From IMG/VR virus record IMGVR_UViG_3300015179_000022: a DNA stretch of 6,015 bases; one strand, given 5' to 3'. Origin of the DNA: a virus. Lineage: Duplodnaviria > Heunggongvirae > Uroviricota > Caudoviricetes. Below, one piece after another: positions 1 through 6,015 of the stretch. The notes below the pieces were generated by a model. That model was not told the DNA's origin. It ran no database searches and saw nothing but the letters and a program-made list of their open reading frames with translations. Position numbers and translations under genes: made by a program. Every line of letters starts with the position of its first letter. Position 1 is the first letter of the stretch.

Positions 1-133
1 CACGGTCCAGCGAGATGTCTAGGTCAAAAATTTCACCGTCAAAGCGTTTTTTTTTTCTTTACTCTAAAGTTACCGTAACTTTATTCTCAAAATTGCGGAT
101 CCCTTTCACAATCAGTTCATAGTTTTGAGTCAT
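1..133 (-). pseudogene. ydfR-like small lysis-cassette protein (Qin YdfR / DUF1327-type), 5' part only; frame interrupted by in-frame TAA at 59..61 and gene runs off the window edge
   Basis: ATG at 131..133 sits 4 nt after the holin stop, with GGGGAGAG upstream. Translation MTQNYELIVKGIRNFENKVTVTLE, then TAA, then the same frame continues RKKKRFDGEIFDLDISLDR to position 2. The MTQ.YEL.VKG.RNFENKVTVT and RFDGEIFDLD motifs match my recollection of E. coli Qin YdfR. Confidence 0.5.
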
Positions 134-137
134 TGAA

Positions 138-353
138 TTACTCTCCCCGTGCAGCCTTACGCTTGTCTTCTTTAATCTTGAAATAAAGGTTTGTCAGGTA
201 CGTCAGCAGGCCAAATACCAGGCTACCCAGCACTCCAATTGCCGCCCACTGTGAGGGCGTGACTTTATCTAGCAGCTGTAAAAACCAGTACCCGGCACTA
301 CCTGCTGAGGTGCCATAGGCGACACCCGTTGTTAACTTATCCATGGATTTCAT
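138..353 (-). CDS. essD: Class II (S21-type) holin / pinholin, 71 aa
   Basis: Translation [71 protein letters not shown] matches the phage 21 S / EssD-EssQ holin family. Dual-start motif Met1-Lys-Ser-Met4; GAGGTGG Shine-Dalgarno upstream of ATG at 351..353. The ORF-track extension to 398 begins with TTG and was not used. Confidence 0.9.
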
Positions 354-480
354 AACCCCACCTCGCAGACAAAGCGGGTGTAAATTGAGGGAATACAACG
401 TATCGCAAAAAAGCAGAAACGTAACAGACTCGGAGTCAGTGAATAACTCAGGTATTGGGTTATCAGCTAATATCGAGACT

Positions 481-514
481 CAAAAAATGGAAAAACCCGC
501 TCGACGGCGGGTTT
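481..514 (-). terminator. Rho-independent terminator (minus strand) upstream of the holin
   Basis: Stem CCCGC(496..500)/GCGGG(507..511) with 6-nt loop; on the minus strand it is followed by TTTTTCCATTTTTTG (complement of the A-runs at 481..495). Confidence 0.55.
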
Positions 515-659
515 AAGCTGTGTGACGAAGTAACCACTCTTAACAGCATAACCAATTTTTTACGTACGTAAACCACTAAATGATATTTGCGAGAATGCTA
601 CCGAGTATTGAAAACACCACTACAAATACATAAGCAAATCTCAACAAATAACCAACAAA

Positions 660-942
660 TAATTTCCAGTGTTATTTTTAGCTGGTTTAAATTGAACCTT
701 CAAATTATAGAGCACTTATAAATAATAGCCGTTAATATAAATTGGCTAATAGATTTATTTTTATTCAGCCAAGAGCCATGAATAGGATTCGATAGAAAAA
801 AGTTCAGATAAAAATAGAGATCTACTTCACAAATCAAACGAGAAACCAAAACTTACATCTTGAAATAATCACATTGATTAGATGAATATTTATCGCGCAG
901 TGACATCATTTTTTAATAATAGTTCAAAAAAAAGGGCTCACG
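660..942 (+). promoter_or_regulatory. AT-rich upstream regulatory / promoter region of the porin gene
   Basis: Strongly AT-rich non-coding stretch directly upstream of the porin ATG at 943, with several -10-like hexamers (e.g. TTATAA around 716..721, with TTGAAC at 692..697). Exact promoter not resolved. Confidence 0.3.
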
Positions 943-2025
943 ATGAAAAAATTAACAGTGGCAATTTCTGCTGTAGCTGCATCAGTACTGATGGCGATGT
1001 CTGCTCAGGCAGCTGAAATTTATAATAAAGACAGTAACAAGCTGGATCTGTACGGGAAAGTTAATGCTAAGCACTACTTCTCCTCTAATGATGCAGATGA
1101 TGGTGATACTACTTATGCCCGTCTTGGCTTCAAAGGTGAAACCCAAATCAACGATCAACTGACTGGTTTCGGTCAGTGGGAATATGAATTCAAAGGCAAC
1201 CGCGCTGAATCTCAAGGTTCCTCCAAAGACAAAACCCGTCTTGCATTTGCAGGCCTGAAATTCGGTGACTACGGCTCAATCGATTACGGCCGTAACTACG
1301 GTGTAGCATACGACATCGGTGCGTGGACTGACGTTCTGCCAGAATTCGGTGGCGATACCTGGACCCAAACAGATGTGTTCATGACTGGTCGCACCACTGG
1401 TGTTGCAACCTATCGTAACAACGACTTCTTTGGTCTGGTCGATGGCCTGAACTTTGCTGCTCAGTATCAGGGTAAAAATGACCGCACTGACGTAACTGAA
1501 GCCAATGGTGATGGTTTCGGTTTCTCCACTACTTATGAGTATGAAGGATTCGGCGTGGGTGCAACCTATGCTAAATCAGATCGCACTGACGGTCAGGTCG
1601 CCTATGGTAAGAGCAAATTCAATGCCTCCGGCAAAAATGCGGAAGTATGGGCTGCAGGCCTGAAATATGATGCGAACAATATCTATCTGGCTACCACATA
1701 TTCTGAAACTCAGAATATGACCGTTTTTGGTAATAACCATATTGCAAACAAAGCACAAAACTTTGAAGCAGTAGCACAATATCAGTTTGACTTCGGTCTG
1801 CGACCATCTGTTGCTTACCTTCAGTCAAAAGGTAAAGACCTTGGTGTTCATGGTGACCGAGACTTAGTCAAGTATGTCGATGTCGGTGCTACTTACTACT
1901 TTAATAAAAACATGTCCACTTTTGTTGATTACAAAATCAACTTAATTGACGATAGTAAGTTTACCAAAACAGCTGGTATTGATACCGACGACATCGTCGC
2001 TGTAGGTCTGGTGTATCAGTTCTAA
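943..2025 (+). CDS. nmpC: Outer-membrane general porin of the OmpC/OmpF/PhoE family, prophage-encoded NmpC/Lc type, 360 aa, apparently intact
   Basis: N-terminus [46 protein letters not shown] (signal peptide plus porin start), internal porin motifs and C-terminal ...VAVGLVYQF with terminal Phe. Convergent with quuD. Confidence 0.93.
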
Positions 2026-2035
2026 TCTGATTACG

Positions 2036-2075
2036 AAAAAGATATGTTGCGGGAGGCTTTGCCTCCCCAACATAT
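2036..2075 (-). terminator. Rho-independent terminator (minus strand), candidate tR'-like late terminator downstream of quuD
   Basis: About 15-bp stem with a one-base bulge (2042..2057 pairing 2061..2075), 3-nt loop; on the minus strand followed by CTTTTTCG (complement of 2034..2041). Confidence 0.6.
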
Positions 2076-2076
2076 A

Positions 2077-2214
2077 AGTGGCTCCCTCAAGCCACTTCCT
2101 TTAGGAGCACAACCTTGCTTCTAACTATATAAACCTTCTGTTATATATTACCCTTTATTTTTGGGGGCGTCTCAACGCCCCATTTTTAATAATTTTTAGT
2201 AAACAATTGGCATA
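2077..2214 (-). promoter_or_regulatory. Candidate late promoter / Q-utilisation (pR'/qut-like) region directly downstream of quuD
   Basis: Position immediately 3' of the Q-family gene and 5' of a strong minus-strand terminator, as in lambdoid phages. A TTGAGA -35-like hexamer (complement of 2170..2175) lies about 17-19 bp from GTAATA/TAATAT. No exact promoter could be assigned. Confidence 0.25.
2163..2190 (+). terminator. Rho-independent terminator (plus strand) for the porin transcript
   Basis: Stem GGGGCG(2164..2169)/CGCCCC(2176..2181), loop TCTCAA, followed on the plus strand by ATTTTTAATAATTTTT. Confidence 0.55.
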
Positions 2215-2598
2215 TTAATTAGAGTTATTAACAACGATATCCATCTCTAACCGGATATCTAATGCCATTAACATCCCTTCAATTATGCCCTCAGCCTTCT
2301 GTAACCTTTTCCCGATATAACCATCAGAGCAGCAATGCTTACCTGCCAGTGACATGAATGTCATACCGACTACATAATAATCTACCAATAAATCATGCAA
2401 ATCGCTGTTGTTCTTTTTCAGACGGGCCATGCACCCGCAAATGATCATCGCGTCATCGTCACAACATTGTGGGCGAGATTTTACTTTTGAAGGAATTAAT
2501 CCCTTAAAACCGGCGGCAATGGACGACCAGGTCACATCTTCATGATTATTAGCCGCCCACGCTCCCCAACGCTCAAGAACCATCTGAATATCACGCAT
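2215..2598 (-). CDS. quuD: Late-gene antitermination protein Q (phage 82 / DLP12 QuuD-type), 127 aa
   Basis: Translation from ATG 2596..2598: [31 protein letters not shown]...[32 protein letters not shown]..., recognised as the DLP12 QuuD family. GGAG Shine-Dalgarno upstream. The ORF-track N-terminal extension begins with TTG and was not used. Confidence 0.88.
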
Positions 2599-3469: not shown

Positions 3470-3632
3470 GATTCCTCCTTGCTGCCAGTCGCAACCATTT
3501 TTTATCAACCAGGCTGGCGGTATATCCGAGCAGTGTTGGTATTTCGGAAGGCTTCAGCTCCGGTTTACGCTTACGACGATCTGGTACTCTGTAGATGTGT
3601 CCGTTCATGACACGAATAAGCGGTGTAGCCAT
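3462..3632 (-). CDS. ninE: NinE-family protein, 56 aa
   Basis: ATG at 3630..3632 overlaps the natural ybcN stop TAA at 3632..3634 (TAATG). Translation [56 protein letters not shown] matches recalled NinE. Too short for the ORF track. Confidence 0.8.
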   Translation of the reverse strand: MATPLIRVMNGHIYRVPDRRKRKPELKPSEIPTLLGYTASLVDKKWLRLAARRNHG

Positions 3633-4087
3633 TACGCCTCCTGCTTGTCGCGCAGCAGCTGGAACTCGCAGCTCTGCGGAATAGTCAGGTGGCAGCCAAT
3701 ATTCATCGCCTAGGCTTCAACCTTACACAGGAAGACATACATCTCTCCGGCATCAAGATCGGAGGTATGGCGTAACGACTGGATAGTGGTGATTTCACCG
3801 GTTACGACATCAACCAGTTCTTTGGTTTCATAACCGAGGTATGTGTGTTTGAGAGCTTCTTTTACCCATGCTGCGGTAGCGAACGATTTCCCCCTGCTGA
3901 TAAGGTATTCACTGATTTCGCTGTACCACATGTGGCTGAGTGCATTCTGGGAAAGACTGCGTTTCTCACGCCACGGTTTAAGCACCATGCGAAAGCATTT
4001 TCCGTCCTCCAGATAAGGCTGGATCTGCTGGCCGATAGCGGTGAAGTTGCCGCGATGTAATTTGATGCCATCTTGTGGTAGGTTCAC
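3632..4087 (-). pseudogene. ybcN: ybcN (NinB-family recombination protein) with an in-frame amber codon at 3710..3712; translatable N-terminal fragment 3710..4087 is 125 aa
   Basis: GTG start at 4085..4087 with GGAGGTGA Shine-Dalgarno. 125 codons ([15 protein letters not shown]...LCKVEA) then TAG. The same frame continues AMNIGCHLTIPQSCEFQLLRDKQEA to a TAA overlapping the ninE ATG, giving 125+1+25 = 151 codons, the recalled YbcN length. The recalled family member has Trp (TGG) at the stop position. Confidence 0.8.
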
Positions 4088-5025: not shown

Positions 5026-5634
5026 TTATTGCAACAGATTCTGACGGAAATATGGTAACACTCGACTCCACTTATCATCCTGCCACGGTTGGAATTTTAC
5101 ATGCGCCGTTTCTCTGGCAAGGATTTCTCGCGCCCTGTTGAGTATCCGAGGATATTCTTGTTCGATTGAAGTGAATCTACCTGCTTCGCGATGCTCTGCG
5201 ACCTGAAGAAGGGGCGTAACGTTCTGGCAGGCGGTTAACATCGTATCACTTGCTCGCCATAACCAGGCGAGTGTGCAAAGTTCGTTATCAGTGAATTGTT
5301 TTGTGATTGGGGATTGTTGAACTTCTCGATCGAGAATATCCAGAACCCAGCGGCGGAATTCTTTGGCCACAGGAGTACGAGCAAACATGGCGATCAAATG
5401 GGCTCCGCGAAGGCTAAATACTCGAGACTCCTGCATTCCACGAGGGGTGGTCACTTTGACCACCCTTGTCATCATATCTGTGAATTCATCTGAGTGCCGA
5501 GAGTAAATGCGCTGAACTGCTTTATCGTCCGCATATTCCAGTGCTAAACCAACTTCAGTGGCAGTAAGCCAAATTCTGTTATTGTGGCAAATCGGGGTAA
5601 ACGTCGTTTTGTGGAATGCTAATTGAGTAGTCAT
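5026..5634 (-). CDS. Bro-N domain DNA-binding protein, Roi/antirepressor-like, 202 aa
   Basis: ATG at 5632..5634 with GAGGTGA Shine-Dalgarno. N-terminal half (FHKTTFTPICHNNRIWLTATEVGLALEYADDKAVQRIYSRHSDEFT...FRRWVLDILDREV) fits the Bro-N pattern and resembles Roi-type proteins found in lambdoid nin regions. C-terminal half not recognised. Confidence 0.75.
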   Translation of the reverse strand: MTTQLAFHKTTFTPICHNNRIWLTATEVGLALEYADDKAVQRIYSRHSDEFTDMMTRVVKVTTPRGMQESRVFSLRGAHLIAMFARTPVAKEFRRWVLDILDREVQQSPITKQFTDNELCTLAWLWRASDTMLTACQNVTPLLQVAEHREAGRFTSIEQEYPRILNRAREILARETAHVKFQPWQDDKWSRVLPYFRQNLLQ

Positions 5635-5658: not shown

Positions 5659-5691
5659 TCACCACCAACGACGCCAATCGACTGGTGGTGA
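5659..5691. repeat. Perfect 9-bp inverted repeat TCACCACCA / TGGTGGTGA with 15-bp spacer, in the leader of the Roi-like gene
   Basis: Arms at 5659..5667 and 5683..5691, read directly from the sequence; located about 25-60 nt upstream of the Roi-like start on the transcribed strand. Confidence 0.5.
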
Positions 5692-5790
5692 ACTGTGTAA
5701 GGTTGGCGTAACCGGCTACTCAAACCCGGCGCTTCCGAAGAAGCCCTCACACAGCCCACCATAATTTGGGCATAGCCGTGCTTAGCGCAC

Positions 5791-5811
5791 AAAAAAACCG
5801 CTTAACGCGGT
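5791..5811 (-). terminator. Rho-independent terminator (minus strand), possibly tR2-like early-operon terminator
   Basis: Stem ACCGC/GCGGT (5797..5801 / 5807..5811), loop TTAAC; on the minus strand followed by a run of 7 T (complement of 5791..5797). Confidence 0.5.
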
Positions 5812-5896
5812 ATGCGTTGAGTAGTATCCCGGGACGCCAATCCCGTGTGCCGATTTTGCGGCAACGCACAGAATATAGCGCCGGATAAATCTTGTC

Positions 5897-6015
5897 GGTG
5901 ATGCTGCCAACTTACTGATTTAGTGTATGATGGTGTTTTTGAGGTGCTCCAGTGGCTTCTGTTTCTATCAGCTGTCCCTCCTGTTCAGCTACTGACGGGG
6001 TGGTGCGTAACGGCA
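5897..6015 (+). mobile_element. IS1 insertion sequence, left end (terminal inverted repeat plus start of insA), continues beyond the window
   Basis: 5897 onward reads GGTGATGCTGCCAACTTACTGATTTAGTGTATGATGGTGTTTTTGAGGTGCTCCAGTGGCTTCTGTTTCTATCAGCTGTCCC..., the canonical IS1 terminus and insA leader as I recall them. Confidence 0.92.
5952..6015 (+). CDS. insA: IS1 InsA (transposition inhibitor / N-terminal part of InsAB' transposase), 5' fragment only
   Basis: GTG at 5952..5954 (IS1 position 56) followed by codons for ASVSISCPSCSATDGVVRNG, the InsA N-terminus with its zinc-finger cysteines. Truncated by the window edge. Confidence 0.85.
   Translation, partial: MASVSISCPSCSATDGVVRNG

What the first reader, a model, noticed from the sequence alone, without database searches (positions are those of the whole stretch)
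1..133. ydfR-like gene after the holin is interrupted by TAA immediately 5' of an A10 homopolymer
Reading frame MTQNYELIVKGIRNFENKVTVTLE-stop-RKKKRFDGEIFDLDISLDR: the conserved RFDGEIFDLD block continues in the same frame after the TAA at 59..61. Directly downstream of the stop on the coding strand is a run of ten A (complement of 47..56). Homopolymer tracts of 9 or more are hotspots for replication slippage and for transcriptional slippage, so this could be a pseudogene, a slippage-prone on/off site, or a reshaped local sequence relative to family members that read VALQDKE here.
Basis: partly seen in the sequence, partly recalled or inferred. Interest (0 to 1): 0.45.

Follow-up and report, generated by a model that had tools for sequence, protein, structure and literature searches.

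The report
One-off nonsense patch in prophage ydfR
A small prophage gene of unknown function (YdfR/DUF1327 family) is broken in this one sequence by a unique 11-base patch of six changes to A that creates a stop codon and a ten-A run; it is an ordinary dead gene copy or a sequence error, not a slippage-operated switch.

Summary
On the minus strand a DUF1327/YdfR gene starts at 133, hits TAA at 59..61 (codon 25), and after a 2-nt spacer comes A10 (47..56). The conserved RFDGEIFDLD block continues in the same frame.

Comparison changes the meaning. Two sister contigs are identical to the window over about 6 kb except for six substitutions at 53, 55, 56, 58, 60 and 63. All six are to A on the coding strand. 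They turn TTAGCGTTACGGGACAAAAAACGC (LALRDKKR) into TTAGAGTAAAGAAAAAAAAAACGC (LE*RKKKR).

None of the six changes, and no intermediate, was found in:
- 4883 ydfR-like places in 5426 complete E. coli genomes;
- 88 close alleles that I read directly;
- IMG/VR, JGI metagenomes or 185,579 species representatives.

No donor sequence for the patch was found.

The stop lies upstream of the tract and in frame with both halves, so no tract length (A7–A13 simulated) reopens the gene. The other frames are closed. The only downstream in-frame start is at codon 92.

Verdict: a private, non-programmed lesion. It is either a genuine clustered mutation that pseudogenised the gene in an IS-flanked prophage fragment, or an error in this record. 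Only the reads can tell which. The on/off slippage idea is refuted. Interest is low.

The parts
1..133 (-). 5' 44 codons of a DUF1327/YdfR-family gene. The rest lies beyond the window edge. The full gene is 114 codons in sister contigs.
   Evidence: Translation; Pfam PF07041 hits on both halves; intact sister gene L030 5880-6224.
62..133 (-). 24-codon stub ORF (MTQNYELIVKGIRNFENKVTVTLE), which is all that can be translated.
59..61 (-). Premature ochre stop TAA at codon 25, where relatives have TTA (Leu).
   Evidence: Alignments.
53..63 (.). Private 11-nt patch of six substitutions at 53, 55, 56, 58, 60 and 63. On the + strand they are G>T, C>T, C>T, G>T, A>T and G>T, so all are to A on the coding strand.
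   Evidence: These are the only differences from L030 over 6012 nt and from L032 over 5947 nt. They are also the only differences from E. coli 203740 over window 1-2170.
47..56 (-). A10 homopolymer, made from the ancestral A6 (47..52) plus the pre-existing A at 54 and the changes at 53, 55 and 56.
   Evidence: ancestral A6 in 66+ alleles and in at least 120 IMG/VR contigs.
138..353 (-). Holin gene essD (71 aa), immediately upstream in the same late operon. It is unaffected.
   Evidence: ORF list; annotation of identical relatives; PF04971 in sister contigs.

Best explanation
This is a one-off, non-programmed lesion of an accessory prophage gene. A single clustered-substitution event replaced six bases within 11 nt by A on the coding strand of a DUF1327/YdfR gene. 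The gene sits between the holin and the endolysin in an IS-flanked lambdoid (DLP12-like) prophage fragment. One change (TTA>TAA) makes an ochre stop at codon 25. Three others fuse with the ancestral A6 to give A10. Shown: translation can only yield a 24-residue stub, and the remaining 89 codons are left untranslated with no usable restart. Also shown: the patch is derived, private and not copied from any allele or nearby sequence. Inferred: the gene is a fresh pseudogene in this isolate. Inferred: the loss is tolerated because the gene is dispensable for lysis and the prophage is already decaying. Inferred: there is no polar effect on the endolysin, which starts 344 nt after the DUF1327 stop in sister contigs and is transcribed by Q-antiterminated polymerase. 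The A10 is a by-product with no switching role. The chemistry of the event is unknown. The all-to-A pattern fits polymerase insertion of A opposite several non-instructive lesions on the + strand (the 'A rule' of translesion synthesis), or repeated dislocation at the A6 run. Both are inferences from general knowledge.
For: The window equals sister contigs L030 and L032 at every other base over about 6 kb. It equals E. coli 203740 over 1-2170 apart from the patch. The probability that six random differences in 6012 nt fall within 11 nt is about 1e-13, and that all six give the same base about 5e-3, so this is one event and not six. The patch is derived. 88 close alleles read LALRDKKR or differ only at other positions. 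None of 4883 ydfR-like places in 5426 complete E. coli genomes is closer than the unpatched ancestor at 95.5%. The lineage already carries another inherited nonsense mutation (ybcN TGG>TAG) and ends in IS1, which fits a decaying prophage. YdfR genes are pseudogenised elsewhere: E. coli 042 has A7 and is annotated 'frameshifted'. Apart from the patch the window shows no other difference from L030 or L032, so the record looks accurate elsewhere.
Against: A six-substitution, single-base-type cluster is far outside the usual spectrum of spontaneous mutation. The allele is a singleton with no second observation in any collection searched. The source record and its reads could not be located. A local error or edit in this record therefore cannot be excluded and is nearly as likely.
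Confidence: 0.5

Rival explanations
1. Record error or edit. The six to-A (to-T on the + strand) calls are a local sequencing, assembly, polishing or data-handling artefact. The organism actually carries the intact 114-aa gene.
For: The allele is a singleton, absent from 5426 complete E. coli genomes, 185,579 species representatives, IMG/VR and JGI metagenomes. Sister contigs are identical at every other base over about 6 kb and have the intact gene. The one-base-type pattern looks non-biological. No natural donor was found.
Against: The window has no other difference from L030 or L032 over about 6 kb, and the few differences from the other sisters are scattered single bases, so the record is otherwise accurate. 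The patch is about 2.5 kb from the far end of an 8.6-kb-type contig and about 6 kb from the IS1 end, so it is not contig-end noise. The usual artefacts at homopolymers are indels, whereas this patch preserves length exactly. Perfect homology resumes on both sides.
Confidence: 0.38
2. Slippage-operated on/off site or programmed recoding. The A10 changes length during replication or transcription and so switches YdfR expression.
For: A10 exceeds the roughly 9-nt length at which runs of A or T become slippage-prone and are selected against in many bacterial genomes (PMC1088944). The ancestral A6 already shows rare +1 alleles: A7 in E. coli 042 and in 3 IMG/VR contigs.
Against: The TAA is upstream of the tract and in frame with both halves. 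A7 to A13 all terminate at codon 25, and lengths other than 7, 10 and 13 also frameshift the rest. The two other frames are closed across the site, so there is no ORF to fuse. The tract and the stop are absent from all homologues. Known functional slippage sites join two frames and are conserved (PMC1088944).
Confidence: 0.02
3. Gene conversion or template switching copied the patch from a divergent ydfR allele or from another A-rich sequence.
For: Lambdoid prophages are mosaic, and E. coli genomes with a ydfR-like match carry 1-4 copies, median 1. A patch with intact flanks is the expected footprint of short-tract conversion.
Against: None of the 88 alleles has any of the six changes. No complete E. 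coli genome has an intermediate. The 19-mer patch occurs only 4 times in 185,579 species representatives, all in unrelated organisms, which is about the chance rate. There is no copy with 3 or fewer mismatches in the 8.6-kb sister contig or in the rest of the window. Versions of the patch with any base at the two upstream changed positions, including sense-codon ones, are absent from IMG/VR and JGI metagenomes.
Confidence: 0.05
4. A naturally separate 24-aa small ORF followed by an independent downstream gene.
For: None beyond the ORF's existence.
Against: All homologues are single ORFs of 104-114 aa covering both parts. There is no in-frame ATG, GTG or TTG after the stop until codon 92.
Confidence: 0.01

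Closest known systems
YdfR of the E. coli K-12 Qin prophage (P76160) / Pfam DUF1327 (PF07041)
   Same: Same family by Pfam and the same position directly after the class II holin in a lambdoid lysis cassette. K-12 YdfR is a 103-aa cytosolic protein of unknown function. It binds the catalytic N-terminal half of RNase E through its first 72 residues and co-purifies with RNA (PMC13232886).
   Different: Here the ORF is cut at codon 25, so at most a third of the mapped interaction region could be made. The closest intact relatives are the 114-aa variant, 100% identical outside the patch.
Frameshifted YdfR pseudogene of E. coli 042 (EC042_RS07115) and similar alleles
   Same: The same gene is inactivated at the same spot, the A-tract at codons 28-29. 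This shows that loss of this gene is tolerated and that the tract is a weak slippage site.
   Different: Those alleles are simple +1 slippage (A6 to A7). The window allele has no indel but six substitutions and a nonsense codon.
Functional transcriptional-slippage sites (Thermus thermophilus dnaX A9, Shigella mxiE, IS-element transposase genes)
   Same: A run of 9 or more A's in the sense strand of a coding region (PMC1088944).
   Different: Those sites link two reading frames or set the ratio of two products, and they are conserved among homologues. Here both halves share one frame separated by a stop, and the run is unique to one sequence.
Clustered multi-nucleotide mutations from error-prone or translesion synthesis ('A rule'); named from my own knowledge, not tested
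   Same: Several substitutions within about one helical turn, on one strand, with adenine inserted each time.
   Different: Six hits in 11 nt is unusually dense. No experimental or read-level evidence is available for this locus.

Membership tests
DUF1327 / YdfR family gene | Significant match to Pfam PF07041 above the gathering score | tested here: met
   N-terminal 24 aa: 38.2 bits. C-terminal part (window plus sister extension): 90.4 bits. Intact sister: 142.8 bits. Cut-off is 25.
DUF1327 / YdfR family gene | Single uninterrupted ORF of about 100-115 codons | tested here: not met
   TAA at codon 25. Homologues have 104-114 aa. It is therefore a pseudogene or disrupted copy of a family member.
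DUF1327 / YdfR family gene | Location after the holin in a lambdoid lysis cassette | tested here: met
   essD at 353..138 is followed by the gene at 133. Sister contigs continue with lysozyme and Rz-like genes.
Programmed transcriptional slippage / frameshift site | Homopolymer of at least about 9 A or T in the coding strand | tested here: met
   A10 at 56..47. Threshold from PMC1088944.
Programmed transcriptional slippage / frameshift site | Two ORFs in different frames that slippage joins, or a nearby out-of-frame stop that gives a second product | tested here: not met
   Upstream and downstream parts are in the same frame with a TAA between them. The other two frames are closed.
Programmed transcriptional slippage / frameshift site | Conservation of the slippery run among homologues | tested here: not met
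   0 of 88 alleles. None in 5426 E. coli genomes, IMG/VR, JGI metagenomes or GTDB representatives.
Phase-variable (contingency) locus with a simple-sequence repeat | Tract-length change toggles the ORF between on and off | tested here: not met
   A7 to A13 simulated. Every length terminates at codon 25.
Phase-variable (contingency) locus with a simple-sequence repeat | Tract-length polymorphism among isolates or within reads | not testable with these tools
   The allele is a singleton and no reads are available. Only the ancestral A6/A7 polymorphism was seen.
Diversity-generating retroelement target (adenine-specific mutagenesis) | Nearby reverse transcriptase and a template repeat, with the variable copy differing at template adenines | tested here: not met
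   No RT gene or Pfam RT domain appears among the genes of the window or of the 8.6-kb sister contigs. No second copy of the segment exists. The change is towards A in the single copy, not away from A.
Programmed stop-codon readthrough | The stop codon is conserved at this position in homologues | tested here: not met
   All homologues have TTA (Leu) there.

The most novel reading that the evidence does not exclude
The patch is genuine biology: a single mutational event in which six neighbouring bases on one strand were all replaced by the same base. That would create, in one step, both a nonsense codon and a 10-nt homopolymer, a length not seen in 673 kb of related phage DNA. It would be a natural snapshot of the birth of a homopolymer by clustered 'A-rule'-type synthesis next to an existing A6 run. 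The new tract would now be a hypermutable, transcription-slippage-prone element inside the late operon.
Probability: 0.35. Interest if true: 0.3.

Novelty: already known. Interest (0 to 1): 0.1.

Why it matters
It matters little. If real, it is one more inactivated accessory gene in a decaying E. coli prophage, in a gene family whose function is still unknown and which is also found frameshifted in other strains. There are two points of mild interest. The first is the unusual mutational signature of six to-A changes in 11 nt, which would deserve a look at the reads. The second is a general caution: a homopolymer next to a stop codon is not evidence of a switch unless a change in tract length can actually restore the frame.

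Tried and rejected
1. Finding the source record. Exact-protein look-ups with the 169-aa protein and with Q hit proteins that were too common. The truncated YbcN led to sister contigs, but none carried the patch. The only ORFs spanning the patch are a 24-aa stub, too short to look up, and a 35-aa antisense ORF that is not on record.

2. Exact and relaxed DNA pattern scans for the allele. I tried the 39-mer, A6-A14 tract lengths, and any base at the two upstream changed positions, in GTDB representatives, IMG/VR and JGI metagenomes. All returned zero.

3. Donor search for templated mutation. The 19-mer gave only four hits in unrelated organisms, about the chance rate, in 185,579 species representatives. 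Nothing within 3 mismatches was found locally.

4. New regulatory signal created by the patch. No terminator-like site appears on either strand. The folds of both strands are no better than shuffles (z +0.39 and +0.35) and weaker than the ancestral sequence. One promoter-like match (TTGAGA-18-TAGAGT, 9 of 12) appears only in the patched version but is at the chance rate of 0.8 per region. I rejected it as meaningful.

5. A systematic artefact across the window. I looked for other private clusters and found none.

6. DGR, readthrough and small-ORF readings were considered and rejected; see the membership table.

7. I did not run the large protein searches. Clustering at 90% identity would hide a 4-residue variant, and the disrupted gene yields no called protein. 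Structure prediction of the intact protein was not possible, because only 44 codons lie in the window and outside sequences are not accepted.

Full report
**What is in the sequence**

The minus strand of window 1..400 reads the end of a class II holin gene (essD, 353..138), a 4-nt gap, and then ATG at 133..131. From there the frame gives MTQNYELIVKGIRNFENKVTVTLE, TAA at 61..59, then RKKKRFDGEIFDLDISLDR up to the window edge. Between the TAA and the run of ten A's (56..47) lie two bases, A and G.

Both halves match Pfam DUF1327 (PF07041) in register, so this is one gene with an internal stop and not two genes. An A/T 10-mer is expected 0.07 times in shuffles of the window. In 673 kb of related enterobacterial phage loci I counted one 9-mer and no run of 10 or more.

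**What relatives show**

The best matches in 5426 complete E. coli genomes and in GenBank phages (E. coli 203740, phage Chlobot) are annotated as an intact 114-aa 'YdfR family protein'. Aligned, they read TTAGCGTTACGGGACAAAAAACGC (LALRDKKR) where the window reads TTAGAGTAAAGAAAAAAAAAACGC (LE*RKKKR). The length is the same, with six substitutions that are all to A on the coding strand: C>A, T>A, C>A, G>A, G>A and C>A.

Over window 1-2170 these six, at + strand positions 53, 55, 56, 58, 60 and 63, are the only differences from E. coli 203740.

**Sister contigs**

The window's ybcN carries a nonsense codon (TGG>TAG, 3712..3710). An exact look-up of that truncated 125-aa protein led to a small lineage of short-read contigs with the same gene order as the window.

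Two of them, L030 (GCA_965180305.1) and L032 (an ENA metagenome scaffold), are identical to the window at every base over 6012 and 5947 nt except for the same six positions. In the sisters whose contig reaches the end of the gene, the DUF1327 gene is called intact, mostly at 114 aa.

Six random differences in 6012 nt would fall within 11 nt with probability about 1e-13, and would all give the same base with probability about 5e-3. So this is one event, or one error, private to this sequence.

**How widespread is it, and where could it come from?**

- None of 4883 ydfR-like places in the complete E. coli genomes is more similar to window 1-133 than the unpatched ancestor at 95.5%. No genome there carries the patch, or any subset of it, on this allele background.
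- Among 88 close alleles read directly, variation at the site is limited to point changes at four other positions, mostly G/A, plus one A7. None shares any of the six changes.
- Exact and relaxed pattern scans found nothing in one genome per species for 185,579 species, in IMG/VR or in JGI metagenomes. The scans covered tract lengths of 6-14 and any base at the two upstream changed positions.
- The 19-nt patch occurs four times in the species representatives, about the chance rate, in an Agriterribacter, a Pelagibacteraceae, a deltaproteobacterial and an Asgard genome. None is a plausible donor.
- No copy with up to three mismatches exists in the 8.6-kb sister contig or elsewhere in the window.

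Gene conversion or template switching is therefore unsupported.

**Can the A10 act as a switch?**

No. The stop is 5' of the tract and in frame with the downstream block. I rebuilt the full gene from the window plus the sister's 3' part and varied the tract from A7 to A13. Every version terminates at codon 25, and lengths other than 7, 10 and 13 also frameshift the remainder. The two alternative frames are closed across the site, so no upstream ORF could be fused by a ±1 slip. The only in-frame ATG, GTG or TTG after the stop is at codon 92.

Functional transcriptional-slippage sites join two frames, or set a product ratio, and are conserved among homologues (PMC1088944). Neither holds here.

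The patch does not create a terminator on either strand. Both strands fold no better than shuffles, and less stably than the ancestral version. A 9-of-12 promoter-like match (TTGAGA-18-TAGAGT, 90..61, minus strand) appears only in the patched sequence, but it is at the chance rate.

**Context**

The window is a DLP12-like lambdoid segment. Its parts are:
- a P22AR/ant-like gene preceded by C4 antisense RNA and isrK;
- ybcN (truncated), ninE, ybcO, rusA, ylcG and quuD;
- a porin gene on the opposite strand;
- then essD and the DUF1327 gene.

The window ends 119 nt into an IS1 end (5897..6015), which is where the sister contigs also stop. The truncated-YbcN lineage is known only from contigs under 10 kb. 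This fits a repeat-bounded, decaying prophage fragment taken from a short-read assembly.

The ancestral A6 is itself a weak slippage site. E. coli 042 has A7 and is annotated 'frameshifted'. Fourteen further complete genomes give the same 134-nt alignment. IMG/VR holds 3 A7, 0 A5 and at least 120 A6 alleles. Loss of this gene is therefore tolerated in nature.

K-12 YdfR has no known function. A 2026 study found that it binds the catalytic half of RNase E through residues 1-72 and co-purifies with RNA (PMC13232886). A 24-residue stub would lack most of that region.

**Interpretation**

The best-supported reading is a non-programmed, one-off lesion. If the sequence is correct, a single clustered-substitution event made a fresh pseudogene, and the A10 is a by-product.

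No polar effect on lysis is expected. The endolysin starts 344 nt after the DUF1327 stop, and late transcription is Q-antiterminated. That second point is an inference from lambda biology.

The one-base-type signature suggests adenine insertion opposite several damaged bases on the + strand, or repeated dislocation at the A6 run. Both are inferences from general knowledge and are untested here.

The main rival is that the six calls are an error or edit in this record. In its favour are the singleton status and the unnatural-looking pattern. Against it are the otherwise error-free 6 kb, the exact length preservation, and the position well away from contig ends. I rate a real mutation at about 0.5 and a record error at about 0.38. 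Only reads or resequencing can decide between them.

The slippage switch, conversion, small-ORF, readthrough and DGR readings are rejected on the tests above.

**Novelty and score**

This is an ordinary kind of thing, a disrupted copy of a known family in a prophage remnant, with an odd mutational signature. Interest is 0.1.

Noticed in passing
window 3632..4087 (-), stop at 3710..3712: ybcN (DNA base-flipping protein) is truncated to 125 aa by TAG where relatives have TGG (Trp126). The last 26 codons remain in frame up to the normal stop. Unlike the ydfR patch, this nonsense allele is inherited. The exact 125-aa protein is on record in 109 blocks of the protein collection, always on contigs under 10 kb.
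   Followed up: yes
window 5897..6015: The window ends 119 nt into the terminal inverted repeat end of an IS1 element (GGTGATGCTGCCAACTTACTGATTTAGTG...). Sister contigs break within a few bases of the same point, which suggests the source is a short-read contig ending in a repeat.
   Followed up: partly
L003 (E. coli 042, NC_017626.1 1421596-1421911); also H107-H120; L120-L122: The ancestral A6 tract at codons 28-29 of ydfR-like genes is A7 in E. coli 042, where the gene is annotated as a frameshifted pseudogene. It is also A7 in 3 IMG/VR contigs. Fourteen more complete genomes show the same 134-nt alignment. No A5 alleles were found. So the natural tract is a recurrent +1 slippage site.
   Followed up: partly
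window 5681..5766 (-) and 5791..5863 (-): Rfam matches above the gathering score to C4 antisense RNA (74.8 bits) and isrK Hfq-binding RNA (58.7 bits). They lie just upstream of the Bro-N/P22AR-C antirepressor-like gene (5634..5026, minus strand), an arrangement that resembles the phage c4/ant type of immunity (that comparison is from my own knowledge).
   Followed up: no
window 493..514 (-): A strong terminator-like hairpin (AAACCCGCCGTCGAGCGGGTTT followed by a T-rich tail) lies about 140 nt upstream of the holin start on the late-operon strand. It is identical in the sister contig and may be the late-transcript terminator that Q overrides.
   Followed up: no
window 943..2025 (+): A 360-aa OmpC/NmpC-like porin gene sits between the antiterminator gene quuD (2598..2215, minus strand) and the holin, on the opposite strand. 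This is prophage cargo of the DLP12 type.
   Followed up: no
L030 6190..6462 (-), outside the window: In sister contigs and in annotated relatives, a 90-aa 'hypothetical protein' ORF is called antisense to, and overlapping, the 3' end of the DUF1327 gene. Whether it is a real gene is unknown.
   Followed up: no
window 61..90 (-): The patch raises a hexamer from TAGCGT to TAGAGT, which creates a 9-of-12 sigma-70-like match (TTGAGA-18-TAGAGT) absent from the ancestral sequence. It is at the chance rate for the region.
   Followed up: yes
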